Source of the DNA: a virus
Taxonomy: Duplodnaviria > Heunggongvirae > Uroviricota > Caudoviricetes
Direction: 5' to 3' (one strand)
IMG/VR virus record: IMGVR_UViG_2541047806_000003
Coordinates: 1 to 55,921 of that record
DNA: 55,921 nucleotides
Shown one piece after another: positions 1 through 18,091 of the stretch. Made by a program: the position numbers and the translations under genes. The notes beneath the pieces are model-generated. The model saw nothing but the letters and a program-made list of their open reading frames with translations. It made no database searches and was not told the origin of the DNA. Within the stretch, counting starts at the first letter, position 1; each line of letters starts with the position of its first letter.

Positions 1-1446
1 ATGAGTATGTCATCCATACCGTCGTCCTCCCAATCCGGGAAGCTCTATGGCTGGGTCGAAAGAATTGGTAACAAGGTGCCCCATCCTTTTTTGCTCTTTA
101 TCTATTTGATTATCGTACTCATGGTGACGACAGCAATTTTGTCGGCCTTTGGCGTCAGTGCGAAAAACCCGACCGATGGTACGCCGGTGGTCGTGAAAAA
201 CCTGCTCAGTGTGGAAGTATTACACTGGTTTTTACCCAATGTTATTAAAAACTTTAGCGGTTTTGCTCCACTTGGAGCGATCCTGGCGCTGGTTTTAGGT
301 GCCGGTCTGGCGGAGCGCGTCGGCTTACTGCCAGCGTTGATGGTTAAAATGGCATCGCATGTGAATGCCCGCTACGCCAGTTATATGGTGCTGTTTATTG
401 CTTTTTTTAGCCACATTTCTTCCGATGCGGCGTTAGTGATCATGCCACCGATGGGTGCGCTGATTTTTCTGGCGGTGGGCAGGCATCCAGTTGCAGGTTT
501 ACTGGCCGCCATTGCAGGCGTAGGTTGCGGCTTTACGGCTAATTTACTGATTGTCACAACCGACGTGTTGCTGTCGGGGATCAGCACGGAGGCTGCGGCT
601 GCGTTCAATCCGCAAATGCACGTCAGTGTAATTGATAACTGGTATTTTATGGCCAGCTCCGTAGTCGTACTGACGATTGTTGGCGGCCTGATAACCGACA
701 AAATCATTGAGCCACGTTTAGGTCAATGGCAGGGAAACAGCGATGAGAAACTGCAGACATTAACCGAAAGTCAGCGTTTTGGTTTACGCATAGCAGGTGT
801 CGTATCGCTACTTTTTATTGCTGCGATTGCGCTGATGGTGATCCCGGAAAACGGGATATTGCGCGATCCGATTAATCACACCGTGATGCCATCCCCCTTT
901 ATTAAAGGTATCGTGCCACTGATCATTCTTTTTTTCTTTGTGGTCTCGCTGGCTTATGGCATCGCTACCCGCACAATTCGACGTCAGGCGGATTTACCGC
1001 ATTTAATGATTGAACCGATGAAAGAGATGGCGGGATTTATCGTGATGGTTTTTCCCCTCGCCCAGTTTGTCGCCATGTTTAACTGGAGCAACATGGGGAA
1101 ATTCATCGCCGTGGGGCTGACCGATATACTGGAAAGTTCAGGGCTTAGCGGCATCCCGGCGTTTGTCGGTCTGGCGTTGCTTTCCTCTTTCTTATGCATG
1201 TTTATCGCCAGCGGTTCCGCAATCTGGTCGATTCTGGCCCCCATTTTCGTACCGATGTTTATGCTACTTGGCTTTCACCCGGCATTTGCGCAAATCCTCT
1301 TTCGTATTGCCGACTCATCCGTATTGCCTTTAGCGCCGGTATCTCCTTTTGTTCCACTGTTTCTTGGATTCCTGCAACGTTACAAACCAGACGCGAAACT
1401 GGGTACTTACTATTCGTTAGTTTTGCCCTATCCACTTATCTTTTGA
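1..1446 (+). CDS. abgT: AbgT-family (p-aminobenzoyl-glutamate) transporter; ORF begins at window edge and appears C-terminally shortened at the prophage junction
   Basis: 481 aa polytopic membrane protein, N-terminus MSMSSIPSSSQSGKLYGWVERIGNKVPHPF recognised as AbgT-like; ORF stops at 1446 just before phage-end repeat and terminator. Confidence 0.7.
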   Translation: MSMSSIPSSSQSGKLYGWVERIGNKVPHPFLLFIYLIIVLMVTTAILSAFGVSAKNPTDGTPVVVKNLLSVEVLHWFLPNVIKNFSGFAPLGAILALVLGAGLAERVGLLPALMVKMASHVNARYASYMVLFIAFFSHISSDAALVIMPPMGALIFLAVGRHPVAGLLAAIAGVGCGFTANLLIVTTDVLLSGISTEAAAAFNPQMHVSVIDNWYFMASSVVVLTIVGGLITDKIIEPRLGQWQGNSDEKLQTLTESQRFGLRIAGVVSLLFIAAIALMVIPENGILRDPINHTVMPSPFIKGIVPLIILFFFVVSLAYGIATRTIRRQADLPHLMIEPMKEMAGFIVMVFPLAQFVAMFNWSNMGKFIAVGLTDILESSGLSGIPAFVGLALLSSFLCMFIASGSAIWSILAPIFVPMFMLLGFHPAFAQILFRIADSSVLPLAPVSPFVPLFLGFLQRYKPDAKLGTYYSLVLPYPLIF

Positions 1447-3685: not shown

Positions 3686-3730
3686 CGCAATAACTCCGTT
3701 TTGTTAATTAACTAAACAATTCTACCATTT

Positions 3731-3746
3731 TGTGATCTGTGTTACA
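3731..3746. promoter_or_regulatory. CRP-like palindrome TGTGATCTGTGTTACA upstream of moron 1
   Basis: 9/10 match to TGTGA-N6-TCACA; part of recurrent CATTTTGTGATCTG motif. Confidence 0.3.
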
Positions 3747-3882
3747 CTTTGGGCTTATACATAATGTATTTTTTGATCTATATCAACATACGAAATGATA
3801 GCTTCTGCGGTGATTTGCTCATCGGATGGGTGGATCATCACGAACAACAAATGACAGTAAAACAAACAGTAAGGTGAATACA

Positions 3883-4128
3883 ATGAAAAAACTAATTGTT
3901 GCTTGCATCTTATCAGCTCTGTCTTTTGGTGCTTTTGCTTCTGTAAATTCGACAGATAAGAGTGATGCTGGCACTGCTCAATATGGTGATACTGGCCTTG
4001 ATAACCAACGTTCGAGTTATTTCAATACTGACTCATGGAAAGAAAAACAACTACAAGGTAAAATTATTGACAGTGAATGTAATTTACCTATCCATTTTTC
4101 TGGTATAAATGATGGGTGTAAAAAATAA
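3883..4128 (+). CDS. Small secreted protein (moron between J and tail fibre)
   Basis: 81 aa from ATG 3883 with SD AAGGTGA; N-terminal signal peptide MKKLIVACILSALSFGAFA; opposite strand to tail genes; own terminator. Confidence 0.5.
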   Translation: MKKLIVACILSALSFGAFASVNSTDKSDAGTAQYGDTGLDNQRSSYFNTDSWKEKQLQGKIIDSECNLPIHFSGINDGCKK

Positions 4129-4140
4129 AAACAATGCATA

Positions 4141-4167
4141 AAAAACGGGGCTTATGCCCCGTTTTTT
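4141..4167. terminator. Bidirectional rho-independent terminator
   Basis: Stem AACGGGGC/GCCCCGTT, loop TTAT, A-run upstream and T-run downstream. Confidence 0.6.
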
Positions 4168-7100
4168 ATGCTGTCGTTGATGTTCTAAATGATCCGGTGC
4201 CTCTTGCTACTATCATTGTTGGAGAATACAACGCGGTACAATATGCGTATCCTTCAGATGATGATGTTTGAGGACAATATATTTTCCCGATAATATCTGA
4301 TGCTTTTAAACCAGAAAAAGCGCATTGCACTGTTAATGTGCATCCACCATAAGGCACGTAATATGAAATTGTTTTGTTTTTATCTCCGCAACTAAACGTT
4401 ACGTTATAAGTGGATCTATATTCACCAGACATTAATGAAATAGTCGCCATAAGCATAACTGATTTCGTCAATGCATTATCCGTGCTGTCTTTATATGTGA
4501 TGGTTGCGCTATAACTTCCGTTATGCCCAAGCACTCGATCTGGACCAACCCCCATGTTAGCAACGTCACCGACAAATGACTTTGCCTCTACTGTACCTTT
4601 AAACTTCCCGCTTGTGGCCTGAATCTCACCAGTGAATTTACCAGATGTTGCGTACACCGTACCGCGTACAGTGACGTTGTTGAACTCCGCATTGCCGTTT
4701 TTATTTAGCATCCAGCCAGCCGAACCAGCTTTATAGTTGGTTGACTGAATTTGCTGCGCAATCTTCGCGGTAGTGATTGATGCGTCTCTGATCCACGCAT
4801 CACGGATGTAGCAAGCACCGTTAGTAACATAGAACGGGGTCTGATAGGAGCCACCTGCCGCAGTCATAAGCACGAAACGGTCAACGAGGAAAATACACTG
4901 CGATTGAACGTTAGTCCCGCTACCAGTAAGGCCGAGCGACATTCCTGTAGCGTATTTCATACCGTTTTTATCAGTGGCAATCTTAATTGAATATGACGCA
5001 TCAACGTTACCTTTGAAGTCAGTCAGTGCTTTTGATGTCGTTTCTATCGCCGTTGTGTTTCCGTTAATAGTTACTTTCAACTGGTCGATTCTGGTTGACA
5101 ATGCCTCGTCTGCCGTTGCCATAGCCTGTGACCATTCCGTGATGCTTGAGTTTACATCGTCGAAAGATGCCGAGATCTGGCCAAATTTTTCCGCGCTTGA
5201 TGTTTCATGCGTAGAAAGTGCAGTTGACACTTCGGATACTTTCGAATTAATCGTACTGGTAAGCGATGAGTTAAGGCTGCTGATTGCGTCAGTGCGTGCA
5301 TTCTTCTCATCTGCGATCGCTTTATCCATCCTGGTTACGTTGCTTGTCACCTTGCTATCGAGCGTGGAAATTGACGCATTAACCCCGCTAATAGCTTCTG
5401 CGCGTGCGCTCGCCTCATCTGCGATTGCTTTATCAAGACGGGAAACGCTCGCGTCGGTTTTGCTTTCAAGACTACTGACGCTGGCGTTAACGTTGCTAAT
5501 AGCTTCTGCGCGTGCGCTCGCCTCATCTGCGATTGCTGTGTCTACCCTTGCTATTTCCGCTTTTGTTTTTGTTTGTCCTTTCCTGTATTTCGCCTCAATA
5601 ACAGTGCTCATCTTGCTTTGCGCCATTGAGTTATTAATAAGCGCCAGAGATGCGTTTTGCAGACTTGCTTTCGCCTGATCTATCTCGTCGCTGTTTTTAT
5701 CAACCTCACTTTTAACGCCGCCAAGCGTCGCGCTGATACCTGATATCGCCTGAGCACGTGCGCTTGATTCATCAGCGATAGCTTGATCAAGACGGCTAAC
5801 ACTGGCATTTGTGTTATTTTCAAGCGTTGTTAAATCAGCTTTAACCACTGTTATTGCGTCGCTTCTTGCCTGCGTTTCATCTGATATTGCATTATCGAGG
5901 CGCTTAACGCTGGCGTCAGTTTTCTTGTCAAGTGTTGAGATACTTGCGTTCACGTCGCTGATAGCCTGAGTACGCGCACTTGTTTCGTCTGCAATTGCCT
6001 GATCAAGACGGTTTACGCTGGCGTCAGTTTTCTTGTCAAGATTGCTTATTGAGGCATTTACACCGTTAATAGCTTCAGCGCGGGCGCTGGCCTCGTCAGC
6101 TACTGCGCGTTGCACATTAGAGATCTGACCTTTAAGGTTTGTGTCCATCACATTCATTTCTGCCGTGATGGTTTCCAGTGATTCCGCTGTCGCTTTTTTC
6201 TCTTCAGCGATAACGTTGTCAATGCGGTCAATTTCCGCTTTCGTCTCTGTCCTGCCTTTCTTGTACTGAGCGGTAAGAGTTACGCGAGTGTTAGTCTGTG
6301 CAAGCGAGTTATTAATAAGAGCAAGTGAGGCGTTTTGCAGACTTGCTTTTGCTTGCGCCAGTTCGCTGCCAACTTTTTCGCTAGACACCTCCAGCGAGTC
6401 GATTCTCGACTCATGCTGTCCAATATCATCGGCGTTTTCCTTAACTTTTTTATAAAGATCTTCCGTTTCTTTTTTGAGCGTATCAGTATCAGCTTTTATT
6501 GATCCTGTTTCTATGGTTAGGTTGTCAGTTTCAGTCCTTAAATCGTCAGTTATGTTGGTCAGATTATCAGTTGCAGTTTTGAGGTTGTCAGTAGCAGTTT
6601 TAAGGTCATTCGTAGCGCTTTCGATAAGATCAGTGCGGTCGCCTAGATCTTTAATGTCACCAACCATTTCTTTAAATTGTTTGGAATTCATTACGTCTTT
6701 GGTGACGTAATCGGTAATTTCATCAAAGTTTTCTGTTGGCTTACCTGACGCTTCCACAAAGTCAGACACACCAAAAGCGTTACGCGCGCGCACATAAACG
6801 TAATATGTGTGACCTGTATTCATGCCGCCAAACGTCCACTGATGACCACGCCCAGTATATTGTGCTTTAGTGGTTATTGATGCCGGATCAGTGATCTGCG
6901 TTTCACCTGAGTAATAAAACTCGTAACTGGTATCAGTGGTGAGCGTTGTTCTGCTGATCGGGTAAACTGTAGCCTGGAATACACCGGGAACCCAATTAAC
7001 GCCAACTGGGGCCGCTGGTGCGCCAATAACCAGATCGACAATGCTTTCCGCACCCTTCATGCCCGTGTCATTTCTGCCACGAATGCCTAATGAGTAGTTG

Positions 7101-9136
7101 CCAGCATCAATGCCATAAAAATCATAACTGTAATTCGTGGTTTCGTAGCTTTTAACTACAGCGCCTTCGGCGTTATACACGCGAATCTCAAAGGTCAGGC
7201 GACGCGTTGTCGTCTGTGTTTCCCATGTTGCGCGACATTGAACCGTTTCAGATCCAACGTTTAACACCTTCAGATTTTCAATGTTCGGCACGCGGAAGTG
7301 ATTAAGCGTGTCGTTATTGATCTCGAAGATTGCGCCATTATCGACTACGGCCTGCTTATGTGGATCATGCTGTGCGGCCTCGATGGTGTATACGCTGTTA
7401 TTTTCTGTTTCTGCTACACTGGTGATTCGACATAAAACGGGTTTTGCTGCGTTGGTTGATACAGCAAAAACAGTGCCGTTACGAATCCACGCCGGGGCGG
7501 CTGCAAGGGTGATAATGTTCCCGTTAACTCCGATGATCTGGTGTTTTTTAAATTTACCATCGCTATCAAGTAAGCTGATGGTGTCGCCAGCCGCGATATA
7601 TTCAGAATCAACCTTGTCGACCGTGATCGCTCTGCCATTGTTCGCCACGATGCGACCGCCTAAACGAGCGCCTGCGCGATTATTATCGAGGATCTCGATT
7701 ATATCCCCCGGCGTAAAGTGAATGGCGTCACGGGCCATTTTAAATGTGAATTTTGACGGCTCGCGTTTCGCTGTTTCGATCAGCCATTTACCAGCGCGGT
7801 GCGCTTGCCCGCGTGAAGTGCAACCGAACGCCTCCAACGTGGTTTCGTTATAACCATCACGGGCGATTAGTTTATCATCTGCGACATATTCTTTTGATTG
7901 CTCCCAGCCGTTTTCAGGGTCAGTCCAGGATACGATCACGGCGTTGTAGCATTCTGCGCGTGCGATACTTGAACGAGTAAACGCGCCATCAACGACGTTT
8001 GCATTTGTGATGGTGGCGATTGGATCTTGTGGCGCATCAATCATCACGGTAAGACGTTGTCCGTCCCATAACGCGATACCACGGAACATACCTGCGATGT
8101 TGTCCAGTAGGTCGCGGGCGCTCATTTGCTCCGTAATGTAAGCGTTAAGCGTCATGCGAGGTTCAAGGCCACCATAGCCATCATCAACCAACTGATCGCA
8201 GTATTGAGAAAGCACGTACAAAGCGCCATCATCAACATCAATGTAACCAGCATGTCGAGCAAGTCCAAAGCGCTCGTTTTTAACCAGATACCGGAAAAGC
8301 CATGCAGGGTTATTGGTATACGCCTTTTTAAATCCACCAAGCCATAAACCTGAATATGTGCGCGTTTCAGGGTTGTAGTTGTCAGGCACATCAACAATCA
8401 GGCCGCGAAGGTGATAGGTGCGGGTAGGCGTATCAGTATACTGATCATGGTCAATTACGGCGCCAGCTACAGCGGTATGAGGATAAGACAGATTATCATC
8501 TATTATTTCGCTGTAACTACTCCACCGCGTATCATTCCGCAATAGATCGCCGTTGCTGTCTGGTGTTATGCGACGAACGCGAATATCAAACGGTTTTTCA
8601 TCCGGCGCTTTAATGATGTGAGCTTCCAGGTATTCACCGCTTTGTTTACCAGGGCCAATGTGTATGTCTTTAATCAGCGACCACGTAGAAGATGATGACG
8701 GTTTAACATCAACCATCAACATGACGGATGTATTATATTGATTGCCCTTTTCATCTGACTGAACGAGAGCATCAACACCAAGATTCAACCTGACGCGGGT
8801 AACGTTTGGATCTGAAACAGTCCTGATTATTGGTGTGTCGTGAGTTACCTTTGCGTTGACAATAACGGTTGACTCAATGGCGTTAAAACCATTAATCGGC
8901 GATTGGTCAGCCGTGCCGTTGCGCCAGGCTATACTAATCCCCGGAATTGATGTATTCCCGTTTGCGTCAGTAACAGGAGTGTCATTAAGCATCACGTCAT
9001 TCAATGGCGCTTTCTGGTTTACCGGACCGTATATCGGCCCTTCGCTGAGAATATCTAAAACACGATAAAACTGTTTGTGATACAGGTTATCGTTCAATAA
9101 TGTTGGTGTTTTGGCTTTGCCGCCGCCGCTACTCAT
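4166..9136 (-). CDS. Host-specificity / central tail fibre protein (lambda J-like) with long coiled-coil repeat extension
   Basis: 1656 aa; N-terminal two thirds resemble lambda gpJ (e.g. YSGLWLGGFKKAYTNNPAWLFRYL); residues about 920-1400 are heptad-like repeats (DASVSRLDKAIADEASARAEAISGVNASIS...). Confidence 0.85.
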   Translation of the reverse strand: MSSGGGKAKTPTLLNDNLYHKQFYRVLDILSEGPIYGPVNQKAPLNDVMLNDTPVTDANGNTSIPGISIAWRNGTADQSPINGFNAIESTVIVNAKVTHDTPIIRTVSDPNVTRVRLNLGVDALVQSDEKGNQYNTSVMLMVDVKPSSSSTWSLIKDIHIGPGKQSGEYLEAHIIKAPDEKPFDIRVRRITPDSNGDLLRNDTRWSSYSEIIDDNLSYPHTAVAGAVIDHDQYTDTPTRTYHLRGLIVDVPDNYNPETRTYSGLWLGGFKKAYTNNPAWLFRYLVKNERFGLARHAGYIDVDDGALYVLSQYCDQLVDDGYGGLEPRMTLNAYITEQMSARDLLDNIAGMFRGIALWDGQRLTVMIDAPQDPIATITNANVVDGAFTRSSIARAECYNAVIVSWTDPENGWEQSKEYVADDKLIARDGYNETTLEAFGCTSRGQAHRAGKWLIETAKREPSKFTFKMARDAIHFTPGDIIEILDNNRAGARLGGRIVANNGRAITVDKVDSEYIAAGDTISLLDSDGKFKKHQIIGVNGNIITLAAAPAWIRNGTVFAVSTNAAKPVLCRITSVAETENNSVYTIEAAQHDPHKQAVVDNGAIFEINNDTLNHFRVPNIENLKVLNVGSETVQCRATWETQTTTRRLTFEIRVYNAEGAVVKSYETTNYSYDFYGIDAGNYSLGIRGRNDTGMKGAESIVDLVIGAPAAPVGVNWVPGVFQATVYPISRTTLTTDTSYEFYYSGETQITDPASITTKAQYTGRGHQWTFGGMNTGHTYYVYVRARNAFGVSDFVEASGKPTENFDEITDYVTKDVMNSKQFKEMVGDIKDLGDRTDLIESATNDLKTATDNLKTATDNLTNITDDLRTETDNLTIETGSIKADTDTLKKETEDLYKKVKENADDIGQHESRIDSLEVSSEKVGSELAQAKASLQNASLALINNSLAQTNTRVTLTAQYKKGRTETKAEIDRIDNVIAEEKKATAESLETITAEMNVMDTNLKGQISNVQRAVADEASARAEAINGVNASISNLDKKTDASVNRLDQAIADETSARTQAISDVNASISTLDKKTDASVKRLDNAISDETQARSDAITVVKADLTTLENNTNASVSRLDQAIADESSARAQAISGISATLGGVKSEVDKNSDEIDQAKASLQNASLALINNSMAQSKMSTVIEAKYRKGQTKTKAEIARVDTAIADEASARAEAISNVNASVSSLESKTDASVSRLDKAIADEASARAEAISGVNASISTLDSKVTSNVTRMDKAIADEKNARTDAISSLNSSLTSTINSKVSEVSTALSTHETSSAEKFGQISASFDDVNSSITEWSQAMATADEALSTRIDQLKVTINGNTTAIETTSKALTDFKGNVDASYSIKIATDKNGMKYATGMSLGLTGSGTNVQSQCIFLVDRFVLMTAAGGSYQTPFYVTNGACYIRDAWIRDASITTAKIAQQIQSTNYKAGSAGWMLNKNGNAEFNNVTVRGTVYATSGKFTGEIQATSGKFKGTVEAKSFVGDVANMGVGPDRVLGHNGSYSATITYKDSTDNALTKSVMLMATISLMSGEYRSTYNVTFSCGDKNKTISYYVPYGGCTLTVQCAFSGLKASDIIGKIYCPQTSSSEGYAYCTALYSPTMIVARGTGSFRTSTTA
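4940..6380. repeat. Intragenic tandem repeat region within J-like gene
   Basis: Exact 41-bp repeat TAATAGCTTCTGCGCGTGCGCTCGCCTCATCTGCGATTGCT at 5388-5428 and 5507-5547 plus many degenerate copies encoding the coiled coil. Confidence 0.6.
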
Positions 9137-11061: not shown

Positions 11062-11079
11062 TTTCTCACCTTGTCATTT

Positions 11080-11095
11080 TGTGATCTGCGTCACG
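11080..11095. promoter_or_regulatory. CRP-like palindrome TGTGATCTGCGTCACG upstream of moron 2
   Basis: 9/10 match to TGTGA-N6-TCACA consensus; about 60-70 bp upstream of candidate promoter start. Confidence 0.3.
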
Positions 11096-11116
11096 CTAAA
11101 TCATACCAAAATGGAT

Positions 11117-11145
11117 TGATCGTGGTTTTTACAATATGTATATTT
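11117..11145 (+). promoter_or_regulatory. Candidate sigma70 promoter for moron 2 (TTGATC-N17-TATATT)
   Basis: -35/-10 hexamers with 17-bp spacer read directly from sequence. Confidence 0.3.
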
Positions 11146-11190
11146 TACTCAAACGAAGGGGAAGTTAACAAAATGGCGCGGAGGTGCGTT

Positions 11191-11379
11191 ATGACTGAAA
11201 AGCTATGGAAGTTGACGGTATTCATGACAGACGGTAGGGAAAAGGTTATCGCCCTGTATGACGACGAGGGGGAAGCATTGGTTGACGCGCTTTTACTTGC
11301 TGAGGATGACCGCCTTTTGGGATACCAGATCGAACCTGTCAAATATGATGCTAACAAAAATGAAAAAATACAGTCTTGA
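11191..11379 (+). CDS. Hypothetical small acidic protein (moron 2, gene 1)
   Basis: 62 aa from ATG 11191 with SD GGAGGTG; in-frame upstream ATG at 11174 also possible. Confidence 0.4.
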   Translation: MTEKLWKLTVFMTDGREKVIALYDDEGEALVDALLLAEDDRLLGYQIEPVKYDANKNEKIQS

Positions 11380-11707
11380 TGTGTGGTTAAGTGGTAGCAA
11401 GGAGTGTTTCGGATTATTTGATAGCGAAGAAGTAGCCCTGGAAGAAGGCAGGATTCTTGAATGTAGTTTAGGCCATCCAGTGAAATATACTGCTAATCCG
11501 GTACAGATAGTTGATGAGGTGGAAGATATGAACCCGAAAGATATTAATGTTAACTTCAATGTTAATTTTGCAGACTCTATGGATCAGTCTTGCCCTGGTG
11601 AAATACACGCAAAAGGTTTCCCGGCTGACGATCCAGAAGCAAAACGCGAATACGAAAAAGCTGCGAAAGATTTCTGTATCGATAACCTTTCAGCATTCGA
11701 TAAATAA
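11360..11707 (+). CDS. Hypothetical acidic protein (moron 2, gene 2)
   Basis: 115 aa from ATG 11360 (MKKYSLDVWLSGSKE...); overlaps gene 1 stop region. Confidence 0.45.
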   Translation: MKKYSLDVWLSGSKECFGLFDSEEVALEEGRILECSLGHPVKYTANPVQIVDEVEDMNPKDINVNFNVNFADSMDQSCPGEIHAKGFPADDPEAKREYEKAAKDFCIDNLSAFDK

Positions 11708-11716
11708 GGCGGCAAC

Positions 11717-11965
11717 ATGGGGCGGCGCAATCACGGTGATTATGTGTACACGTTGAAACAGGCCGCCCGCCTCATCGGTTATCATGAACACGAATTTATT
11801 GATTTGCTGATTGAGCGCGGGATACTGTACCAGGTCTGCTTAACGCTGTACCCTAAAGCGAAATACCTACAGGAAAAGTTATTTATCATCATGACGGATG
11901 AAAACCAGGTTAATCACTCATTCGTCACTGATAAGGGCGTTAATTATCTGCGTGATAACTTATAG
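11717..11965 (+). CDS. Small helix-turn-helix DNA-binding protein (moron 2, gene 3)
   Basis: 82 aa; YTLKQAARLIGYHEHEFIDLLIERGIL resembles excisionase/MerR-type HTH. Confidence 0.5.
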   Translation: MGRRNHGDYVYTLKQAARLIGYHEHEFIDLLIERGILYQVCLTLYPKAKYLQEKLFIIMTDENQVNHSFVTDKGVNYLRDNL

Positions 11966-12672: not shown

Positions 12673-12705
12673 AAAACCCCCACAAGTTACATTTTGTATA
12701 TATCT

Positions 12706-12731
12706 TTACGCGCTTCTACGCGAAAAATAAG
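12706..12731. repeat. Conserved 26-bp element TTTACGCGCTTCTACGCGAAAAATAA (copy 1, upstream of M-like gene)
   Basis: 24/26 identical to 25055-25080 upstream of portal gene; contains direct TACGCG repeats. Confidence 0.35.
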
Positions 12732-12743
12732 ATCATTGTCACA
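12727..12743. promoter_or_regulatory. Perfect palindrome ATCATTGT-C-ACAATGAT (operator-like)
   Basis: 8-bp inverted arms read directly; about 30 bp upstream of candidate -35 of moron 3. Confidence 0.35.
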
Positions 12744-12770
12744 ATGATTATAGCTAGTTTACAAAATGGC

Positions 12771-12839: not shown

Positions 12840-12995
12840 ATGAAACGCTATGTAGTAGTAATGCTAAATAACGCATTCGAACAAGTGGAAATAGCAATCG
12901 TTAAGGGTTTCGACGACGCATTCAAATACGGTCAATTCATGATGAATGCGAAAGAAGATGAATACCGGGACTTCTTCCTGAAGGCACTTAACTAA
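12840..12995 (+). CDS. Hypothetical small acidic protein (moron 3, gene 1)
   Basis: 51 aa (MKRYVVVMLNNAFEQVEIAIVKGFDDAF...), strong SD AAGGAGG; below 60-aa ORF-track cutoff. Confidence 0.4.
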   Translation: MKRYVVVMLNNAFEQVEIAIVKGFDDAFKYGQFMMNAKEDEYRDFFLKALN

Positions 12996-13012
12996 GGATG
13001 ATGGGGTGAGTT

Positions 13013-13267
13013 ATGAAACTGGTAGCGATTGACAGAAATCTGAAAGCACAGAAAAACGCACAGGACCGGATCATCAAGAAAGGTAAGGAATTACTTAAAG
13101 CCTTTCTGAGAAAAGAAGTTTACCCCAAAAAGTTACGCGACGGTTACGGATACAAAATGGATATCAATCTTGATTGGAGGCTGTTTAGCGAAGATTTGAA
13201 GGTTTGGTTAATTGTTGAGCACCATGCCTATAACAAGTTATGTGGCGTGAAAGGCACTCATAAGTGA
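13013..13267 (+). CDS. Hypothetical basic protein (moron 3, gene 2)
   Basis: 84 aa, SD GGGGTGAG, 17 nt after gene 1 stop. Confidence 0.5.
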   Translation: MKLVAIDRNLKAQKNAQDRIIKKGKELLKAFLRKEVYPKKLRDGYGYKMDINLDWRLFSEDLKVWLIVEHHAYNKLCGVKGTHK

Positions 13268-13326: not shown

Positions 13327-13359
13327 AACCCCGGCATTGCACCGGGGTTTAGTTTATTT
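13327..13359 (+). terminator. Rho-independent terminator of moron 3
   Basis: Stem AACCCCGG/CCGGGGTT, loop CATTGCA, then T-rich tract. Confidence 0.6.
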
Positions 13360-15696
13360 GCGGCGAGGTTGCAACATTCCGCCTGGTCTTTGAGATTCCC
13401 TTGTTATCATTTTCATGGCTACACGTTCCATTGTTAATTCAAGTCTGCGGCTGTCTTCGTCGCTGAATCCGTTCGTGGTCTGAATGCTGATACTGACAGG
13501 CATACTAATACCGCCACCGCCGCCAATATCACGGCCCGGAATAACTCTGCCGTTCTCGCCAGGGATCATATATTGATTGCCGTTAGATGTCTGGAATAGC
13601 TCCGGCCTGTTGTGTTCCCCTACGCGGTACATATTACCACCAATGACGCTACCACCATTAAAGCGACCGCCGCCGAAAATTGACGTAGCCAGCGACATGA
13701 TCGCAGTGAGCGCCGCCGAACCAGCCGCCGCCCAGCTACCGCCAGTTGACGCCGCAGTTGCCGCCGCTGCTGGGGCCGCCGCCGCAGCAATGCTTCCCTG
13801 AGCTGCTACCGCGCTTGCTGTTGTACTTGTTTGCGTGGCCTTGCTTTGTGTCTCCATCATGATCTGATCTGCTATCCAGTTTGCAGCTATGTCTGAGAGT
13901 CTGTTACCGATATTGCCGAGTATATTGCTTCCTAAGTTAGCAAAAACATCACTCAATGATTGAGTGCCGTTTAACAGGCCAACAAGCGCATTACTCATTC
14001 CGCCTTTAAGGCCATTAACACAATCACCGATAAGGCCGTTTGTGTCGCTTTGCGCCTGCCATTGTTCCCATTTCAGATCGCGGATCTGTTGCTCATAGGC
14101 TAACAATTCCTGTTTCTGTTGCGCTTCAGTAGCGCCCAGGTCTATAAGCATTTGCTTACGGATGGCCCATTCATTTTGCGCCTGCTGGATGGGGTCAACT
14201 TCGCCTTTTAGCTGATCCATCGGGCTTACTATTTGTGACCATTTATCACGCAATTCATCTACCGGAATTTGTGCTAATTCTTCTTTCAGTTCCTTGCCGA
14301 TCCCTTTTTGCGCGGCGCGGTACTCAAGGAGCGTGATTTTACCCTGGGCAAATGCAGCATCAATGGCCTTGCCGTTCTCCAACGCTTTGCGCATGGCGGC
14401 GGCGTCTTTGTTGTACTGATCAGAAACGCTTATACCTTTGTCACCAAGCCGATCAGCTTCCGATTTCTTCTCTTTTTTCTGTTTTTTCGGCTTGTCTACT
14501 GGCTTGTCGAATCCGGTAATCGCTCCGTCATTGGCAGCATTCTGTTCATTTTTCCTTGCTTCTTCTGTAGCCTGGATTGCTGCGGTCAGATCATCCTGTA
14601 GTTGCATGACCTTGCCAACGGTCTTCCCGTATTTCTTCTCGTAGTTGCTGTTATATTCGTCGGTTTGCTCTCCTACTACCTCCTTCATCCATTTATAGCC
14701 ATCCATTAGCGCCTTGATTGGCGTCACCATTGCGATGATCTTCTCTGCCACCTCTCCAGCCTTAACAGCCACATCATCAAACATGTCGATAAATTCGCTA
14801 CCAGCCGTTTTGAGTGTGTCGAAGCAGGTTTTAGCGAATTTAGCGCCATCGCCAAGCCCTTTAACGCCTTTCGTGATCAAGTCGATAGCTGAAACAACGC
14901 CATCTGACACGCCAAAAAGATCATCCAACTGCTCAACAAGGCCCATAATTTCTACTTTAAGCTCATTGATAGCCATGCCGGATGTGCGCGGCAACTGAGC
15001 AAACTTATCGTTTGTTTCCTGCGTAGCCGCCTGTATTGCGTTAACCATCCTTTCAGCCGTGATCTTGCCGTCCAGCATTTCGGCGCGGAACTGGCCCATT
15101 GATAATCCCATATGGCGGGCCATTGTTTGTACGATGGTCGGCGTATTTTCAAGCAGGCTGTTAAATTCTTCGGCACGAAGAACACCGCCGTCGATAGACT
15201 GACGGAATTGACGCATTGAGTTAGACATCTGTTCCGCTGACGCGCCGCCTAATGCACCCATTTTCTGAATAGTGCCAACCAGGTTAAGCAATTGCCCTTC
15301 CGTAGCGGAGGTGTTTTTTAGTGAGATAGCCAGGCCTTGCCATAATTCGCCAGTATCTTTCAGGCTCTGCCCCGTCTCCCTGGATATTGCTTTCAGGCCG
15401 TCGAAAACCCGTCCGGCGGACTCCGCATCGCCCGTAAGCATTTTGATTTTTACGCGAAGCATTTTTGCTTGCTCCGCCATATCCATAAATTGGCGCACAG
15501 CCTCCGCAGCAATTAGCAGATGGATAACCCTGGTCAGTGCCTTGATGGATGTTTTCAGGGTGTTTACCTGGCGGTCAGCCTGTTTTGCGCCGCGCTCTAT
15601 ACGATCAAAGGCCTGGTCTGCCTGTCGTTGTGCAACGAGAAGTTGACCAGTTTTCGCATCAACTTCGTAATAAATTGTACCTACACTGGTAGCCAT
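13354..15696 (-). CDS. Tail tape measure protein
   Basis: 780 aa, alpha-helical, Ala/Gly-rich C-terminal part, position between chaperone and M-like. Confidence 0.85.
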   Translation of the reverse strand: MATSVGTIYYEVDAKTGQLLVAQRQADQAFDRIERGAKQADRQVNTLKTSIKALTRVIHLLIAAEAVRQFMDMAEQAKMLRVKIKMLTGDAESAGRVFDGLKAISRETGQSLKDTGELWQGLAISLKNTSATEGQLLNLVGTIQKMGALGGASAEQMSNSMRQFRQSIDGGVLRAEEFNSLLENTPTIVQTMARHMGLSMGQFRAEMLDGKITAERMVNAIQAATQETNDKFAQLPRTSGMAINELKVEIMGLVEQLDDLFGVSDGVVSAIDLITKGVKGLGDGAKFAKTCFDTLKTAGSEFIDMFDDVAVKAGEVAEKIIAMVTPIKALMDGYKWMKEVVGEQTDEYNSNYEKKYGKTVGKVMQLQDDLTAAIQATEEARKNEQNAANDGAITGFDKPVDKPKKQKKEKKSEADRLGDKGISVSDQYNKDAAAMRKALENGKAIDAAFAQGKITLLEYRAAQKGIGKELKEELAQIPVDELRDKWSQIVSPMDQLKGEVDPIQQAQNEWAIRKQMLIDLGATEAQQKQELLAYEQQIRDLKWEQWQAQSDTNGLIGDCVNGLKGGMSNALVGLLNGTQSLSDVFANLGSNILGNIGNRLSDIAANWIADQIMMETQSKATQTSTTASAVAAQGSIAAAAAPAAAATAASTGGSWAAAGSAALTAIMSLATSIFGGGRFNGGSVIGGNMYRVGEHNRPELFQTSNGNQYMIPGENGRVIPGRDIGGGGGISMPVSISIQTTNGFSDEDSRRLELTMERVAMKMITRESQRPGGMLQPRRK

Positions 15697-15823
15697 GATT
15701 TAACCTCATGCAAAAATGTGATCTGTGTATCTATTTTATACAAAATGGCTTTACTTCAACGACTCCATTTTGTATAAGGAAGCTAAAGGGAATGGTCAGT
15801 AAATCAAGTTAGCGTGGTGGGTT

Positions 15824-16483
15824 ATGAAACGGTTAGCAAAAGTGGCAATGATTGCGGCGGTATTGGGTCTGGTTGGTTGCAATGAGGATAATGAAAAAGC
15901 GCCTATAGTGACCAATCAAGAGCAACAAGCATTAGCAGAGAAAAATGCTAAATGGCTTGCAGAACAACAAGCAAAACAAGCCGCATACGATGCACAGTTA
16001 GAAAAAGAAAATGCTGGTAAACAGTGGCTTGTAGTTGAAAGAAAAGATGATATGCAGGACGCAAAAAACGTATTCCTTTTTGTGAAAGCAGAACAATTCA
16101 GCGGAAGTCTTGATGCTTTCCCGACACTGAAGGCACAGGATAAGAATAAACCGGTATTAACAATCGCTTGCCAGGGTAATAAAACAAAAATGTTCGTAGC
16201 ATGGTCACACCATGTAACTGACGCCGGGGACACTACTTATATTAACTACCGGATCGGCGTTCACAAAGCTGTAGCTACTGAGTGGTGGCGGTCAACTAAT
16301 TATAAAGCTCTTGGATTATGGGACGGCAAAAAAGCCATCCCAATGATTAAAAAACTGGTTAACGAAAAACAATTCATCATTGAAGTAGTGCCGGAAGCTG
16401 GCGACATTGAGAAAGCAGTGTTTAACATTGATGGTCTTTATAACCACATCGACAAAGTGAAAAACGCTTGCAACTGGAATTAA
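15824..16483 (+). CDS. Lipoprotein (moron 4, gene 1)
   Basis: 219 aa; signal peptide plus lipobox LVGC; SD GGTGGG. Confidence 0.6.
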   Translation: MKRLAKVAMIAAVLGLVGCNEDNEKAPIVTNQEQQALAEKNAKWLAEQQAKQAAYDAQLEKENAGKQWLVVERKDDMQDAKNVFLFVKAEQFSGSLDAFPTLKAQDKNKPVLTIACQGNKTKMFVAWSHHVTDAGDTTYINYRIGVHKAVATEWWRSTNYKALGLWDGKKAIPMIKKLVNEKQFIIEVVPEAGDIEKAVFNIDGLYNHIDKVKNACNWN

Positions 16484-16493
16484 GGGGTAAATC

Positions 16494-16868
16494 ATGAAAA
16501 AAATAATCAAAGCGGTTCTCATTGGTGTTATGGCTTTAGCTCTTACAGGGTGCGCAAGATCAACTGATTTCGTTAAGTTAGCTGATAAAAATTTGCAAGT
16601 TGGAATGACTTGTGAGCAAGTGAATAAAATAATGGGGGAACCACAAAGAATCGAGCATGACGGTAATTATAGTTATCACGTATGGTATTCAGTAACCAGC
16701 ACGATAGGATTTACTTACATGGATGTTGAAGAATTATCCCCTTCAAGGGTTATCGCAAAGTTTGATAACTGCATCCTAAAAGAATGGAAAGATCGCAGTA
16801 AGGCAAAGTCTGTATACAATACAATCACACACAGTTCACCAGGTACAGCAATTAAAGATTTCAATTAG
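16494..16868 (+). CDS. BamE/SmpA-OmlA-like lipoprotein (moron 4, gene 2)
   Basis: 124 aa; lipobox LTGC; LQVGMTCEQVNKIMGEP resembles BamE motif. Confidence 0.55.
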   Translation: MKKIIKAVLIGVMALALTGCARSTDFVKLADKNLQVGMTCEQVNKIMGEPQRIEHDGNYSYHVWYSVTSTIGFTYMDVEELSPSRVIAKFDNCILKEWKDRSKAKSVYNTITHSSPGTAIKDFN

Positions 16869-17568
16869 CAAAACGCCCGGATCTACCGGGCTTTTCTTGC
16901 TCACGATTTTTCATTCTTTCTAGTGCCTTTTTAGCGGCCTCCATTTGCTCGTCATAAGCACGTTTATTTATGTGAATGTTTGGCTTGCTTCTCTCGTTTC
17001 TTTCGTCTGGCGGCGTTTTAGCGCGTACAACGGCCCTATATCCGGTCATTGTCATATTCCATGCTTCTGATTCTGATAACCCCAGGTGAGCTACGGCAGA
17101 ATAAACGAATTCCAGCACGTTAAAAGTCGGCTTATATTCCCCTTCCCGGCTCTCTCCGGCGTCTTCTTCTGGCCCGTCACCGATTAAACCGTGGTACATG
17201 CAATGTTGTGCCAGCGTGATAACGTCACTGGTCGGCATCAGTCCGGGTTTTAGTCGTAACTTGCCGGAAGAAGTTAACCTACATTCACCCAATAACGGGG
17301 CTATTTCGTCGTCTGAGCAACATTTCAGGATGCGCATTGACGTTTGTACTATCTCACCATAACACCGCGCCATAATGCGATTGCGGAGGTCTGGATCTGT
17401 AGGCAATCGTGATGGGTATTTGCTGCCGTGGATAAGTGCGAAATATTCGACAAGCTCACTATCGTTGCCGATTTTAGCCATCGCAGCAAAGCAAGGATTA
17501 AACTCATAGCGCTTACCGTTCACCACAGCCGCAAATTGTCCTGTACGAACATGGATCATAGTATTCAC
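16861..17568 (-). CDS. Tail assembly chaperone (G/GT-position)
   Basis: 235 aa acidic protein between major tail and tape measure genes; assigned by position. Confidence 0.5.
   Translation of the reverse strand: MNTMIHVRTGQFAAVVNGKRYEFNPCFAAMAKIGNDSELVEYFALIHGSKYPSRLPTDPDLRNRIMARCYGEIVQTSMRILKCCSDDEIAPLLGECRLTSSGKLRLKPGLMPTSDVITLAQHCMYHGLIGDGPEEDAGESREGEYKPTFNVLEFVYSAVAHLGLSESEAWNMTMTGYRAVVRAKTPPDERNERSKPNIHINKRAYDEQMEAAKKALERMKNREQEKPGRSGRFAN
16875..16898 (+). terminator. Rho-independent terminator of moron 4
   Basis: Stem GCCCGG/CCGGGC, loop ATCTA, then TTTTCTT. Confidence 0.6.
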
Positions 17569-17614: not shown

Positions 17615-18091
17615 TTATGCTGGCGGAACGTCGCCTACCGTTACCTTGCCAGCGCTTTCGCACTCAATGGACCAGGTGGAAACATTATCGTGTGGATCTT
17701 CTTCTTTAAAGGAAGTGCAAAGGAATGGGCCTTCAGTTACGTCTACAGGAGAAACGATCTTCAGCCATACATAAGGTTGTGATCCGGTGGTTTCACCTGG
17801 CGTAATTACGTGGCGTTTCAGCGCTTTCTGATTATGGATTTCTTCAGTGCGGGACACACCGTCGCCGGAGAAAGAAACGGATTTGTAAGTAACCATTGAT
17901 TCTTTCGTGTAATCGGCTGATTTATCGGCGGTGGCGTCAGCGGTTTCCCATTCAACGGAAAGTGTTTTACCACGCATCATGCCTAACGCTTTGTACGCTC
18001 CAGTTTCCGGCTTCGCATTTGGACAAGCGATAGCGAAGAATACAGCAACGTCACGGCCTGTAAACGTGCCTTTTTCGCAAGTCTGAGACAT
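17615..18091 (-). CDS. Major tail protein
   Basis: 158 aa; position upstream of chaperone and followed by attenuator hairpin. Confidence 0.7.
   Translation of the reverse strand: MSQTCEKGTFTGRDVAVFFAIACPNAKPETGAYKALGMMRGKTLSVEWETADATADKSADYTKESMVTYKSVSFSGDGVSRTEEIHNQKALKRHVITPGETTGSQPYVWLKIVSPVDVTEGPFLCTSFKEEDPHDNVSTWSIECESAGKVTVGDVPPA

What the first reader, a model, noticed from the sequence alone, without database searches (positions are those of the whole stretch)
15706..16898. Two lipoprotein genes, one BamE-like, inserted between tape measure and tail chaperone
Plus-strand ORFs of 219 and 124 aa both carry signal peptides with lipoboxes (LVGC, LTGC); the second has a BamE/OmlA-like motif (VGMTCEQVNKIMGEP). 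Prophage lipoproteins such as Cor and Llp block receptors to exclude superinfecting phages, and Bor-type lipoproteins affect serum resistance. A BamE mimic could perturb outer-membrane protein assembly of a phage receptor.
Basis: partly seen in the sequence, partly recalled or inferred. Interest (0 to 1): 0.55.

Follow-up and report, generated by a model that had tools for sequence, protein, structure and literature searches.

The report
Two-lipoprotein cargo cassette in prophage tail
An E. coli prophage carries, in a swap-prone slot between two tail genes, a small add-on operon for two outer-membrane lipoproteins (one VasI/TagO-like, one with a BamE-type fold) that most likely alters the host envelope, possibly against other phages; it is a typical kind of prophage cargo whose function is untested.

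Summary
Plus-strand ORFs at 15824-16483 (219 aa) and 16494-16868 (124 aa) are real, conserved genes (dN/dS 0.08-0.26). Both have canonical lipoprotein signal peptides, no Asp at +2 and a conserved Cys pair. They lie between the tape measure gene and a DUF6246 gene of an mEp021-like (mEpimmI) E. coli prophage and end at a bidirectional terminator.

It is not a T6SS equivalog and is not in a T6SS cluster. ORF2 has the BamE/OsmE/BLIP fold and is a remote homologue of small BamE-domain lipoproteins, but it is not BamE.

The site is a cargo hotspot. Distant relatives have no gap there. mEpimmI phages carry at least 8 alternative opposite-strand cargo genes, nearly all exported, swapped at shared RBS and signal-peptide codons. 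ORF1 and ORF2 assort independently of each other.

Slot cargo shows no association with the receptor-binding J type (AMI -0.04). The gene downstream of J tracks J type tightly (AMI 0.50) and includes the experimentally proven exclusion lipoprotein Lpp010. A Cor/Llp-style receptor block and a BamE mimic are therefore unsupported.

The best guess is envelope-level defence against incoming phages. A VasI-fold anti-phage protein, SDIC4B, is a precedent. The function remains untested.

The parts
13354..15696 (-). Tape measure protein gene (left flank of the slot)
   Evidence: PF20155 TMP_3 1.1e-49; phrog_1538 2e-159; RefSeq 'tape measure protein'.
15697..15823 (.). Divergent intergenic region. It holds a perfect 13-nt inverted repeat (15736-15748 / 15765-15777) and a weak sigma-70-like candidate for the cargo: -35 TTTACT 15750-15755, 17-nt spacer, -10 TATAAG 15773-15778. 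TGTGATC is at 15717-15723.
   Evidence: The inverted repeat is. Its arms are invariant in 14 slot variants with 7 cargo types while the loop varies. Left-flank homology across all cargo types runs to about 15776-15795. The strict promoter scan found nothing here. The hexamers were read by eye, so the promoter is inferred, not shown.
15824..16483 (+). ORF1: 219-aa outer-membrane lipoprotein. It has signal peptide + lipobox LVG|C19 with +2 Asn, a helical linker at about 31-63 and a VasI/TagO-family beta-sandwich at about 68-216 with invariant C116 and C216.
16494..16868 (+). ORF2: 124-aa outer-membrane lipoprotein. It has lipobox LTG|C20 with +2 Ala and a BamE/OsmE/BLIP-fold domain at about 26-100 with nearly invariant C40 and C93.
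16875..16898 (.). Bidirectional intrinsic-terminator-like hairpin (GCCCGG-ATCTA-CCGGGC + TTTTCTT) ending the cargo operon. It is embedded in the last codons of the convergent DUF6246 gene.
   Evidence: The terminator scan found it on both strands. RNA folds are -13.6 kcal/mol (+ strand) and -18.1 kcal/mol (- strand), with z -3.3 and -4.7. Homology between slot variants resumes at 16863-16872.
16861..17568 (-). DUF6246 gene (right flank), at the position of a tail assembly chaperone between the tube and TMP genes. It overlaps ORF2 by 8 nt, convergently.
   Evidence: PF19759 3.9e-55; phrog_791. No PDB relative. In distant relatives it abuts the TMP gene directly, with gaps of -12 to 166 bp.

Best explanation
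This is a two-gene moron: a self-contained, horizontally exchanged cargo operon. It occupies a recombination hotspot between the DUF6246 gene and the tape measure gene of an mEpimmI (mEp021-like) E. coli prophage.

It is read on the strand opposite to the tail operon, probably from its own weak promoter in the conserved 127-bp intergenic region, and it stops at a bidirectional terminator.

Both products are exported by Sec, lipidated at Cys19 and Cys20, and sorted by Lol to the inner leaflet of the outer membrane, facing the periplasm. ORF1 hangs a VasI/TagO-type beta-sandwich on a helical tether of about 30 residues. ORF2 is a compact BamE/BLIP-fold binding module.

The two act independently of each other. 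I think they most likely protect the lysogen at the envelope against incoming phages, at a step after receptor recognition (periplasmic passage of the tail tip or DNA), rather than by masking the prophage's own receptor.

Shown: the genes, the lipoprotein signals, the folds and families, the hotspot and cassette boundaries, independent assortment, and the lack of linkage to receptor type.

Inferred: the promoter, expression in the lysogen, outer-membrane localisation, and the anti-phage role.

The confidence of 0.4 is for the whole statement including the anti-phage role. The structural part (moron, two outer-membrane lipoproteins, folds, hotspot) I hold at above 0.9.
For: Genes and signals.

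Moron hallmarks:
- Opposite strand, GC 41% and 37% against 48-50% for neighbouring tail genes.
- A terminator.
- Presence/absence polymorphism. Distant DUF6246 phages have a gap of only -12 to 166 bp between DUF6246 and TMP. mEpimmI phages have 650-1285 bp holding at least 8 cargo classes.
- The cassette is 100% identical in 6 E. coli genome records, whereas the wider 2.3-kb region including its flanks is about 97% identical in most of them. It occurs in only 14-15 of 5426 complete genomes.

Cassette exchange: homology between different cargoes is confined to the RBS + signal-peptide codons (15811-15866; 16485-16556) and to the terminator.

Envelope theme: the alternative cargoes are lipoproteins (C0, C7, C39), SPase-I secreted proteins (C3, C12, C28) or a 2-TM protein (C8). 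Only one (C10) looks cytoplasmic.

Independence of ORF1 and ORF2: ORF1 occurs with ORF2, with C10, or alone. ORF2 occurs with ORF1, with C3, or in mEp013 with a 59-aa ORF.

Anti-phage lead:
- VasI-family genes recur as exported cargo in temperate phages at lysogeny-expressed positions: directly after the repressor gene in Brucella phage BiPBO1, near the repressor genes in a Labrenzia phage, and at the integrase/att-proximal end in P2-like phages.
- A VasI-like-fold protein, SDIC4B, alone gave 10-200-fold protection against coliphages and is not found in T6SS clusters (bioRxiv 10.1101/2024.01.28.577318). SDIC4 is now a DefenseFinder subtype (PMC13639185).

Not receptor-matched.
Against: - There are no expression or phenotype data for either gene.
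- The promoter is weak. The -10 ends in G, and the strict scan found none.
- No PADLOC model matches either protein.
- SDIC4B has no BLAST similarity to VasI according to its authors, and I could not compare it with ORF1. The precedent therefore rests on fold only.
- The T6SS function of VasI/TagO is itself unknown (PMC13584744).
- The AF2 models are of moderate confidence (pLDDT about 70) and come from shallow alignments.
- The envelope bias of the slot fits any lysogenic-conversion role (serum resistance, colonisation, T6SS or colicin protection), not only phage defence.
- Lack of linkage to J type argues against self-receptor masking, but it says nothing positive about a post-adsorption block.
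Confidence: 0.4

Rival explanations
1. Receptor-masking superinfection exclusion of the Cor/Llp/Lpp type. One or both lipoproteins bind the outer-membrane receptor used by this prophage's own J protein and so block adsorption of the same or similar phages.
For: They are outer-membrane lipoproteins encoded inside the tail gene cluster, as Cor, Llp and the mEpimmI Lpp proteins are. Lpp021 and Lpp010 of this phage group do exclude phages (PMC11893012). The window lacks any Lpp021/Lpp010-type gene, so that role could in principle be filled by something else.
Against: Across 24 dereplicated mEpimmI genomes, slot cargo is unrelated to the J C-terminal type (AMI -0.04, p 0.69). ORF1 occurs with 5 J types and ORF2 with 3. 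J0-type phages like this one carry either ORF1+ORF2, ORF1+C10 or C3. The gene immediately downstream of J tracks J type (AMI 0.50, p<0.0005). For J0 it is a small secreted protein at 3880-4128, the better candidate for the receptor-matched function. There is no sequence similarity to Lpp021 or Lpp010 beyond the signal peptide, and no Cor or Bor Pfam hit.
Confidence: 0.1
2. BamE mimic. ORF2 docks on BamA/BamD in place of BamE and perturbs assembly of outer-membrane beta-barrel proteins, including phage receptors.
Against: The Pfam BamE score is below the gathering threshold and covers only 19 of 71 positions. There is no NCBIfam BamE hit, and OsmE scores 17.8 against a cutoff of 65. ORF2 scores equally well against BLIP-like proteins, OsmE, DUF4309 and a T6SS immunity protein, so the fold is generic. 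It has a conserved Cys pair that the verified E. coli BamE sequence lacks in its mature part. The family is tiny and phage-restricted. Interfering with BAM would be costly for a lysogen.
Confidence: 0.05
3. T6SS-related or other anti-bacterial-weapon function. ORF1 modulates a host T6SS as a TagO/VasI accessory, and/or ORF2 acts as a periplasmic immunity or inhibitor protein against T6SS effectors, colicins or peptidoglycan hydrolases. This would give the lysogen a competitive advantage.
Against: ORF1 falls far below the TIGR03360 equivalog cutoff (47 against 124). It lacks the N-terminal RLxCYD-type motif seen in the other phage VasI homologues. It is not near any T6SS gene. No effector gene is adjacent. 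The role of VasI/TagO in T6SS is unknown. The SDIC4 authors concluded that VasI-fold proteins outside T6SS loci are co-opted, not T6SS parts.
Confidence: 0.15
4. Host-fitness or virulence conversion unrelated to phages or bacterial competitors, such as Bor-like serum resistance, adhesion or invasion (as for IalB), or envelope stress tolerance (as for OsmE).
Against: The evidence is fold resemblance only. The molecular function of IalB is itself unclear. There is no Bor hit. The cassette is rare (0.3% of complete E. coli genomes) and shows no obvious pathotype restriction.
Confidence: 0.15

Closest known systems
VasI / TagO family (Pfam PF11319; TIGR03360), accessory proteins of type VI secretion gene clusters
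   Same: The ORF1 C-terminal domain (about 55-218) matches the Pfam model above threshold. It is an exported protein with the conserved internal Cys and the C-terminal 'ACNW' Cys.
   Different: ORF1 is not in a T6SS locus and is far below the equivalog cutoff. Its N-terminus is a lipobox plus a helical tether instead of the signal peptide + RLxCYD-type motif seen in the other phage homologues. The family's own function is listed as unknown in a 2026 review (PMC13584744).
SDIC4B, VasI-like-fold anti-phage protein of Serratia/Enterobacteria defence islands (bioRxiv 10.1101/2024.01.28.577318; DefenseFinder subtype SDIC4)
   Same: It has a VasI-type fold outside any T6SS cluster and sits in a mobile or defence context. 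A single protein was sufficient for modest (10-200-fold) protection against coliphages.
   Different: SDIC4B is associated with BrxR and a partner SDIC4A in chromosomal islands, not with a prophage tail slot. Its localisation and any lipidation are not reported.
BamE / OmlA(SmpA) / OsmE / BLIP-like domain proteins (Pfam PF04355 and relatives)
   Same: ORF2 has the same two-helix + beta-sheet fold and the GMTxxQVxxxxGxP motif. Like BamE and OsmE, it is an outer-membrane lipoprotein.
   Different: ORF2 is below the Pfam and NCBIfam thresholds, at about 15-28% identity. It has an extra conserved Cys pair. It is phage-borne, and its family is tiny (2 relatives at E<1e-10 among 1.84e9 representatives). 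There is no evidence of BAM binding.
Cor (phi80/N15), Llp (T5) and mEpimmI Lpp021/Lpp010 superinfection-exclusion lipoproteins
   Same: These are also prophage-expressed outer-membrane lipoproteins encoded among tail genes.
   Different: They are small (about 60-80 aa), lie next to the receptor-binding gene and co-vary with receptor type. ORF1 and ORF2 are larger, unrelated in sequence, about 7-12 kb from the J gene (about 11.6 kb from its receptor-binding 3' end), and unlinked to J type.
Classical morons within tail gene clusters, such as HK97 gp15 (my own knowledge: Cumby et al. 2012; concept reviewed in PMC3594210)
   Same: An independent transcription unit inserted between late genes, with different base composition, encoding an envelope protein. 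HK97 gp15 blocks DNA entry linked to the tape measure protein.
   Different: HK97 gp15 is an inner-membrane protein and is unrelated in sequence. Here there are two outer-membrane lipoproteins and a multi-allelic slot.
IalB (Bartonella invasion-associated locus B; PDB 3dtd)
   Different: Identity is 8%. There was no Pfam IalB hit, and the biological context differs.

Membership tests
Bacterial lipoproteins (Lgt/LspA/Lnt substrates) | N-terminal signal peptide with a positive n-region, a hydrophobic h-region and a lipobox [LVI][ASTVI][GAS]C | tested here: met
   ORF1 is MKRLAKVAMIAAVLGLVG|C and ORF2 is MKKIIKAVLIGVMALALTG|C. Gly-Cys is invariant or nearly invariant in homologues.
Bacterial lipoproteins (Lgt/LspA/Lnt substrates) | Actual lipid modification, and outer-membrane sorting (no Asp at +2) | not testable with these tools
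   The +2 residues are Asn (ORF1) and Ala (ORF2), so the E. coli +2 rule (established knowledge) predicts outer-membrane sorting. Confirmation needs globomycin or palmitate labelling and fractionation.
BamE (PF04355; outer membrane protein assembly factor) | Sequence match above the curated Pfam/NCBIfam thresholds | tested here: not met
   PF04355 scores 18.9 bits, below the gathering score of 23.2, over residues 33-51 only. There is no BamE NCBIfam hit. OsmE scores 17.8 against a cutoff of 65.
BamE (PF04355; outer membrane protein assembly factor) | BamE-type alpha-alpha-beta-beta-beta fold | tested here: met
BamE (PF04355; outer membrane protein assembly factor) | Binds BamD/BamA as part of the BAM complex | not testable with these tools
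VasI/TagO (PF11319, TIGR03360) | Match to the family HMM above threshold | tested here: met
   PF11319 scores 58.1 bits against a gathering score of 26.5, E 1.2e-15, over residues 55-218.
VasI/TagO (PF11319, TIGR03360) | Equivalog-level match (same function as T6SS VasI) | tested here: not met
   TIGR03360 scores 47.4 bits against a cutoff of 124.2.
VasI/TagO (PF11319, TIGR03360) | Encoded within a T6SS gene cluster | tested here: not met
   The gene lies between prophage tail genes in the window and in all 16 IMG/VR loci and about 15 E. coli genomes.
Cor/Llp/Lpp-type receptor-blocking exclusion lipoproteins | Gene linked to, and co-varying with, the receptor-binding protein type | tested here: not met
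   Slot cargo against J C-terminal type gives AMI -0.04 (p 0.69). The post-J gene against J type gives AMI 0.50 (p<0.0005).
Cor/Llp/Lpp-type receptor-blocking exclusion lipoproteins | Sequence similarity to known members (Lpp021, Lpp010, Cor, Bor) | tested here: not met
   BLASTP shows signal-peptide-only matches to Lpp010 and to the unnamed P6-type post-J lipoprotein, and no hit to Lpp021. The Lpp primer sequences are absent from the window. There are no Cor or Bor Pfam hits.
Cor/Llp/Lpp-type receptor-blocking exclusion lipoproteins | Blocks adsorption or infection of phages using a given receptor | not testable with these tools
   This needs plaque and adsorption assays.
Moron (independent cargo transcription unit in a phage genome) | Present in some and absent in other closely related phages, at a fixed site | tested here: met
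   Gaps are -12 to 166 bp in distant relatives. mEpimmI phages carry at least 8 alternative cargo classes. mEp021 and MagusPhagus carry a different gene there.
Moron (independent cargo transcription unit in a phage genome) | Own terminator and atypical base composition | tested here: met
   The hairpin + T-run is at 16875-16898. GC is 41% and 37% against 48-50% for the flanking genes.
Moron (independent cargo transcription unit in a phage genome) | Own promoter, active in the lysogen | tested here: inconclusive
   The strict sigma-70 scan found none in 15697-15823. A weaker TTTACT-17-TATAAG candidate lies within a strongly conserved inverted repeat. No expression data are available.
SDIC4 anti-phage system (VasI-like fold) | Homology to SDIC4B, association with SDIC4A/BrxR, and an anti-phage phenotype | not testable with these tools
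   The SDIC4 sequences and HMMs are not in the available libraries. PADLOC v2 (2023) gave no hit.

The most novel reading that the evidence does not exclude
The DUF6246-TMP junction of mEpimmI phages may be a dedicated 'envelope cargo' slot. A conserved promoter/operator-like inverted repeat would drive interchangeable cassettes that are swapped by recombination within shared RBS + signal-peptide codons. On this reading ORF1 is a lipid-anchored, phage-borne version of the VasI fold that blocks genome delivery by heterologous phages in the periplasm. That would give the enigmatic VasI/TagO fold a defined molecular activity. ORF2 would be a BLIP-like inhibitor of an incoming periplasmic enzyme, such as a tail-tip peptidoglycan hydrolase.
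Probability: 0.2. Interest if true: 0.6.

Novelty: new member of a known kind. Interest (0 to 1): 0.4.

Why it matters
If the cassette does protect lysogens, it would add a lipid-anchored VasI-fold protein and a BamE/BLIP-fold lipoprotein to the known envelope-level phage-exclusion factors. It would also give a handle on the VasI/TagO fold, whose role is still listed as unknown in T6SS reviews.

More generally, the slot shows a tidy mechanism for cargo turnover: recombination anchored in signal-peptide codons and a shared terminator. It also offers a practical rule for this gut-prevalent phage group. The receptor-matched exclusion gene sits after J, while the TMP-proximal slot holds receptor-independent envelope cargo.

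mEp013, a cultured phage, carries an ORF2 homologue, so experiments are straightforward.

As it stands, this is ordinary prophage cargo with no demonstrated function.

Tried and rejected
- A third homologue search with the ORF1 alignment added only two fragments.
- A scan of genome contigs with the ORF1 alignment found no relative.
- The afdb50 fold library was unavailable. BFVD gave only uncharacterised phage proteins.
- PDB sequence searches for ORF1, ORF2, the ORF2 profile and DUF6246 gave nothing meaningful.
- PADLOC gave no hits.
- Pfam found no family above its threshold, and PHROGs no annotated function, for the alternative slot cargoes or for the other tail-cluster islands.
- I considered ORF1 as a spanin. 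There is a weak phrog_812 hit (E 0.089) on the coiled region. I rejected this because the window has its own holin, lysozyme and lysis-protein cassette, and ORF1 is on the opposite strand with its own terminator.
- I considered a frameshift extension of DUF6246 into the antisense of ORF2 (49-aa ORF 16715-16864). I rejected it because that ORF is not conserved where the cargo differs.
- I tested whether the conserved repeat TACAAAATGG is the prophage repressor operator. The immunity-region intergenic sequence shows a different palindrome (TGCAAGT-type), and one copy there is simply the repressor's N-terminal codons. The question is unresolved.
- I considered a CRP site at 15717. Only the left half-site is conserved across slot variants, so I did not accept it here.
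- The LF82 prophage paper was not relevant.
- The supplements of the mEpimmI paper did not show whether its lipoprotein types B and D include these genes.
Full report
**What is there.** The window is an E. coli prophage. It is 100% identical to the chromosome of strain MS 21-1 and about 82-90% identical in the flanking tail genes to Escherichia phage MagusPhagus and the Mexican phages mEp021, mEp044, mEp554 and mEp013. That places it in the recently described non-lambdoid mEpimmI group (PMC11893012).

On the minus strand the tail module runs in this order:
- tail tube gene, 17615-18091
- a DUF6246 gene, 16861-17568
- tape measure gene (TMP), 13354-15696
- then distal tail genes down to J, 4166-9136

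Both begin with a textbook lipoprotein signal: MKRLAKVAMIAAVLGLVG|C and MKKIIKAVLIGVMALALTG|C. A six-frame regex scan of the whole window finds no other credible lipoprotein. The Gly-Cys is invariant or nearly so in homologues. The +2 residues are Asn and Ala, not Asp. By the E. coli +2 rule (established knowledge) this predicts Lol-dependent sorting to the outer membrane.

Each mature part has a conserved Cys pair (C116 and C216; C40 and C93), as expected for periplasmic proteins. Nonsynonymous/synonymous ratios against diverged alleles are 0.21-0.26 for ORF1 and 0.08-0.11 for ORF2. These are real, selected genes. They are 10 nt apart, and an AAGGGG ribosome-binding site overlaps the ORF1 stop codon, so they form one operon.

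A GC-rich hairpin with a T-run (16875-16898) follows ORF2. It scores as a terminator on both strands and lies inside the last codons of the convergent DUF6246 gene.

**What the proteins are.**

*ORF1.* It passes the Pfam threshold for VasI (PF11319, 58.1 bits against 26.5) and belongs to phrog_1848. RefSeq calls it 'type VI secretion system-associated protein TagO'. It falls far short of the TIGR03360 equivalog cutoff (47 against 124 bits).

*ORF2.* It has no family above threshold. It has sub-threshold hits to BamE (18.9 against 23.2 bits, 19 residues), DUF7738 and OsmE.

An exhaustive HMMER search of 1.84 billion representatives found only two relatives at E<1e-10. Of 26 weak hits, 22 carry the Pfam BamE domain. 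A profile-profile comparison with small BamE-domain lipoproteins gives 99.4% probability. Direct BLASTP against E. coli BamE gives 28% identity over 61 residues at E 0.01 in a five-sequence database. I verified the BamE sequence against PDB entries.

ORF2 therefore has a BamE-type domain but is not BamE.

**The site is a cargo hotspot.** I fetched 76 viral contigs encoding DUF6246 relatives and measured the distance to the TMP gene.

- In distant relatives (26-41% identity) the two genes usually abut, with gaps of -12 to 166 bp. A few distant relatives hold cargo on the same strand as the tail genes.
- In mEpimmI phages the gap is 650-1285 bp and always holds opposite-strand genes.

Clustering the slot ORFs gives these classes:
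- ORF1 type: 16 loci
- ORF2 type: 9 loci
- the mEp021 gp63 type: 15 loci, with a signal-peptidase-I signal
- a two-TM protein: 9 loci
- two further secreted proteins
- a 245-aa lipoprotein
- one apparently cytoplasmic 106-aa protein

ORF1 occurs with ORF2, with the cytoplasmic protein, or alone. ORF2 occurs with ORF1, with the gp63 type, or (in the cultured phage mEp013) with a 59-aa ORF. The two are therefore independent modules.

Pairwise BLASTN of the slot shows where homology between variants lies:
- The left flank is shared by all variants up to about 15776-15795.
- A short block at 15811-15866, covering the RBS and the first 14 codons of the signal peptide, is shared by ORF1 and three unrelated secreted cargoes.
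- The ORF2 module starts at about 16478-16499.
- The 245-aa lipoprotein shares only 16485-16556, the RBS and signal peptide of ORF2.
- Homology resumes at 16863-16872, at the terminator.

Cassettes are thus exchanged by recombination anchored in signal-peptide codons and the terminator.

The cassette itself is 100% identical in six E. coli genome records, whereas the wider 2.3-kb region including its flanks is about 97% identical in most of them. It is found in only 14-15 of 5426 complete genomes. GC content is 41% and 37%, against 48-50% for the flanking tail genes. All of this is the signature of a moron.

**Expression signals.** The strict sigma-70 scan finds no promoter in 15697-15823. By eye there is a weaker TTTACT-17 nt-TATAAG candidate (15750-15778).

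It sits inside a perfect 13-nt inverted repeat, TTATACAAAATGG / CCATTTTGTATAA. The arms of this repeat are invariant across 14 slot variants carrying seven cargo types, while the loop varies.

Related motifs lie next to the other opposite-strand islands of the tail cluster, at 3726-3766, 11075-11138 and 12690-12768. TACAAAATG occurs 15 times in the window against about 1 expected. Some of those copies are coding.

I could not decide whether this repeat is a promoter or operator for the cargo, or a signal on the late tail transcript. It does not match the palindromes in the immunity region.

Expression in the lysogen is therefore inferred from architecture, not shown.

The mEpimmI paper showed that small lipoproteins Lpp021 and Lpp010 exclude phages using OmpA and LamB respectively. 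Lpp021 (gp81) lies downstream of J in mEp021.

I fetched 44 mEpimmI loci covering the slot, J and the region after J. I classified the slot cargo, the last 300 residues of J (13 types) and the post-J genes. After collapsing to 24 unique combinations:

| Comparison | AMI | Permutation p |
|---|---|---|
| Post-J gene vs J type | 0.50 | <0.0005 |
| Slot cargo vs J type | -0.04 | 0.69 |

The post-J gene includes the Lpp010-like lipoprotein for five J types. ORF1 is found with five J types and ORF2 with three. Phages with this window's J type carry three different slot contents.

The receptor-matched exclusion function therefore maps to the post-J locus. In this window that locus encodes a small secreted, non-lipidated protein (3880-4128). 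This argues against a Cor/Llp-like block of the prophage's own receptor by ORF1 or ORF2.

The BamE-mimic idea rests on fold alone. That fold is shared with enzyme inhibitors and immunity proteins, and I found nothing that specifically supports BAM binding.

**Most likely function.** VasI-family genes recur as exported cargo in unrelated temperate phages, at positions typical of lysogen-expressed genes:
- immediately after the repressor gene in Brucella phage BiPBO1
- close to the CI and repressor genes in a Labrenzia phage
- at the integrase/att-proximal end of P2-like phages, paired with a zinc-ribbon membrane protein
- after the tail chaperone genes of Pasteurella phage Pmp14, in an island that also holds a protein whose N-terminus looked to me like a GHKL-type ATPase (read by eye, not searched against any library)

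A preprint reports that a VasI-like-fold protein, SDIC4B, from Serratia/Enterobacteria defence islands is sufficient for 10-200-fold protection against coliphages and is not found in T6SS loci (10.1101/2024.01.28.577318). SDIC4 is now a DefenseFinder subtype (PMC13639185).

Taken together with the near-exclusive envelope targeting of slot cargo, I think the cassette most likely protects the lysogen at the envelope against heterologous phages after receptor binding. I put this at about 0.4. The structural description (moron, two outer-membrane lipoproteins, folds, hotspot) I put at above 0.9.

Alternatives not excluded are T6SS or colicin-related protection, and host-fitness or virulence conversion.

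I could not compare ORF1 with SDIC4B. PADLOC gives no hit, and there are no expression or phenotype data.

**Novelty and verdict.** The genes are annotated in RefSeq, and the phage group and its exclusion lipoproteins are published. These two genes and this slot have not been analysed. The six phages sequenced in that paper were said to represent only two lipoprotein types, although mEp013 carries an ORF2 homologue.

This is a new member of a known kind: moron-encoded envelope proteins. It is worth a simple plaque-assay experiment but is not surprising to a specialist. Interest 0.4.

Noticed in passing
window 15736-15748 / 15765-15777 (also 3726-3766, 11075-11138, 12690-12768): There is a perfect 13-nt inverted repeat, TTATACAAAATGG / CCATTTTGTATAA, between the TMP gene and ORF1. 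It is invariant across slot variants with different cargo. Similar motifs, together with a TGTGATCTGyGT box, precede the other opposite-strand islands in the tail cluster. TACAAAATG occurs 15 times in the window against about 1 expected. This could be a shared promoter or operator, or a signal on the late transcript.
   Followed up: partly
window 3880-4128 (+): A small secreted protein (signal MKKLIVACILSALSFGAFA|S, no lipobox, about 81 aa, GC 35%) lies immediately downstream of J on the opposite strand. It is present in all 12 loci with this J C-terminal type. It occupies the position held by the proven exclusion lipoprotein Lpp010 in other J types, so it is a candidate receptor-matched exclusion factor that is not a lipoprotein.
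   Followed up: partly
L102, L105, L123, L097 etc. (slot variants); absent at window ~15795-15811: Most mEpimmI slots carry a conserved 27-aa ORF (MKNVNYRPNEHERYADFIEEMLKALKK), preceded by the hairpin CCGGATTAACCGG, between the inverted repeat and the signal-peptide cargo gene. The window and its closest relatives lack this 133-bp piece.
   Followed up: no
window 11173-11965 (+) and 12840-13267 (+): Two further opposite-strand cargo islands interrupt the tail operon, with GC 40-42%. All their ORFs fall in PHROGs of unknown function. The tail module is thus split into at least four segments by morons, each likely ending in terminators that late transcription must read through. An antitermination protein gene is annotated in the window.
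   Followed up: partly
L179 1936-3166 (phage P88_4B11) and L178 3358-4588 (phage 500465-2): P2-like phages carry, next to the integrase/att end, a two-gene unit: a 110-aa zinc-ribbon + TM protein and a 297-aa secreted VasI-family protein with three CxxxxxxxRLxCYD repeats. Its architecture resembles a two-component defence system and might correspond to SDIC4 subtype I. This was not tested.
   Followed up: no
L180 997-5040 (Pasteurella phage Pmp14): After the tail assembly chaperone genes this phage has an island of three secreted proteins, at least one VasI-like (Pmp14_0015), plus a 652-aa protein whose N-terminus looks like a GHKL-type ATPase (read by eye). This is another case of VasI-like cargo at a chaperone-proximal tail position.
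   Followed up: no
window 16864-16890 (-): The last ~9 codons of the DUF6246 gene are encoded by the cargo terminator hairpin and differ between slot variants. tblastn matches stop at residue 226 unless ORF2 is present. Cassette exchange therefore also changes the C-terminus of a conserved tail-module protein.
   Followed up: no
window 1-1446 (+): The left end of the window is a host gene that looks like the AbgT-family p-aminobenzoyl-glutamate transporter (identified by eye from the protein sequence). The integrase is at the far right end of the window. The window therefore spans almost the whole prophage and one host junction.
   Followed up: no
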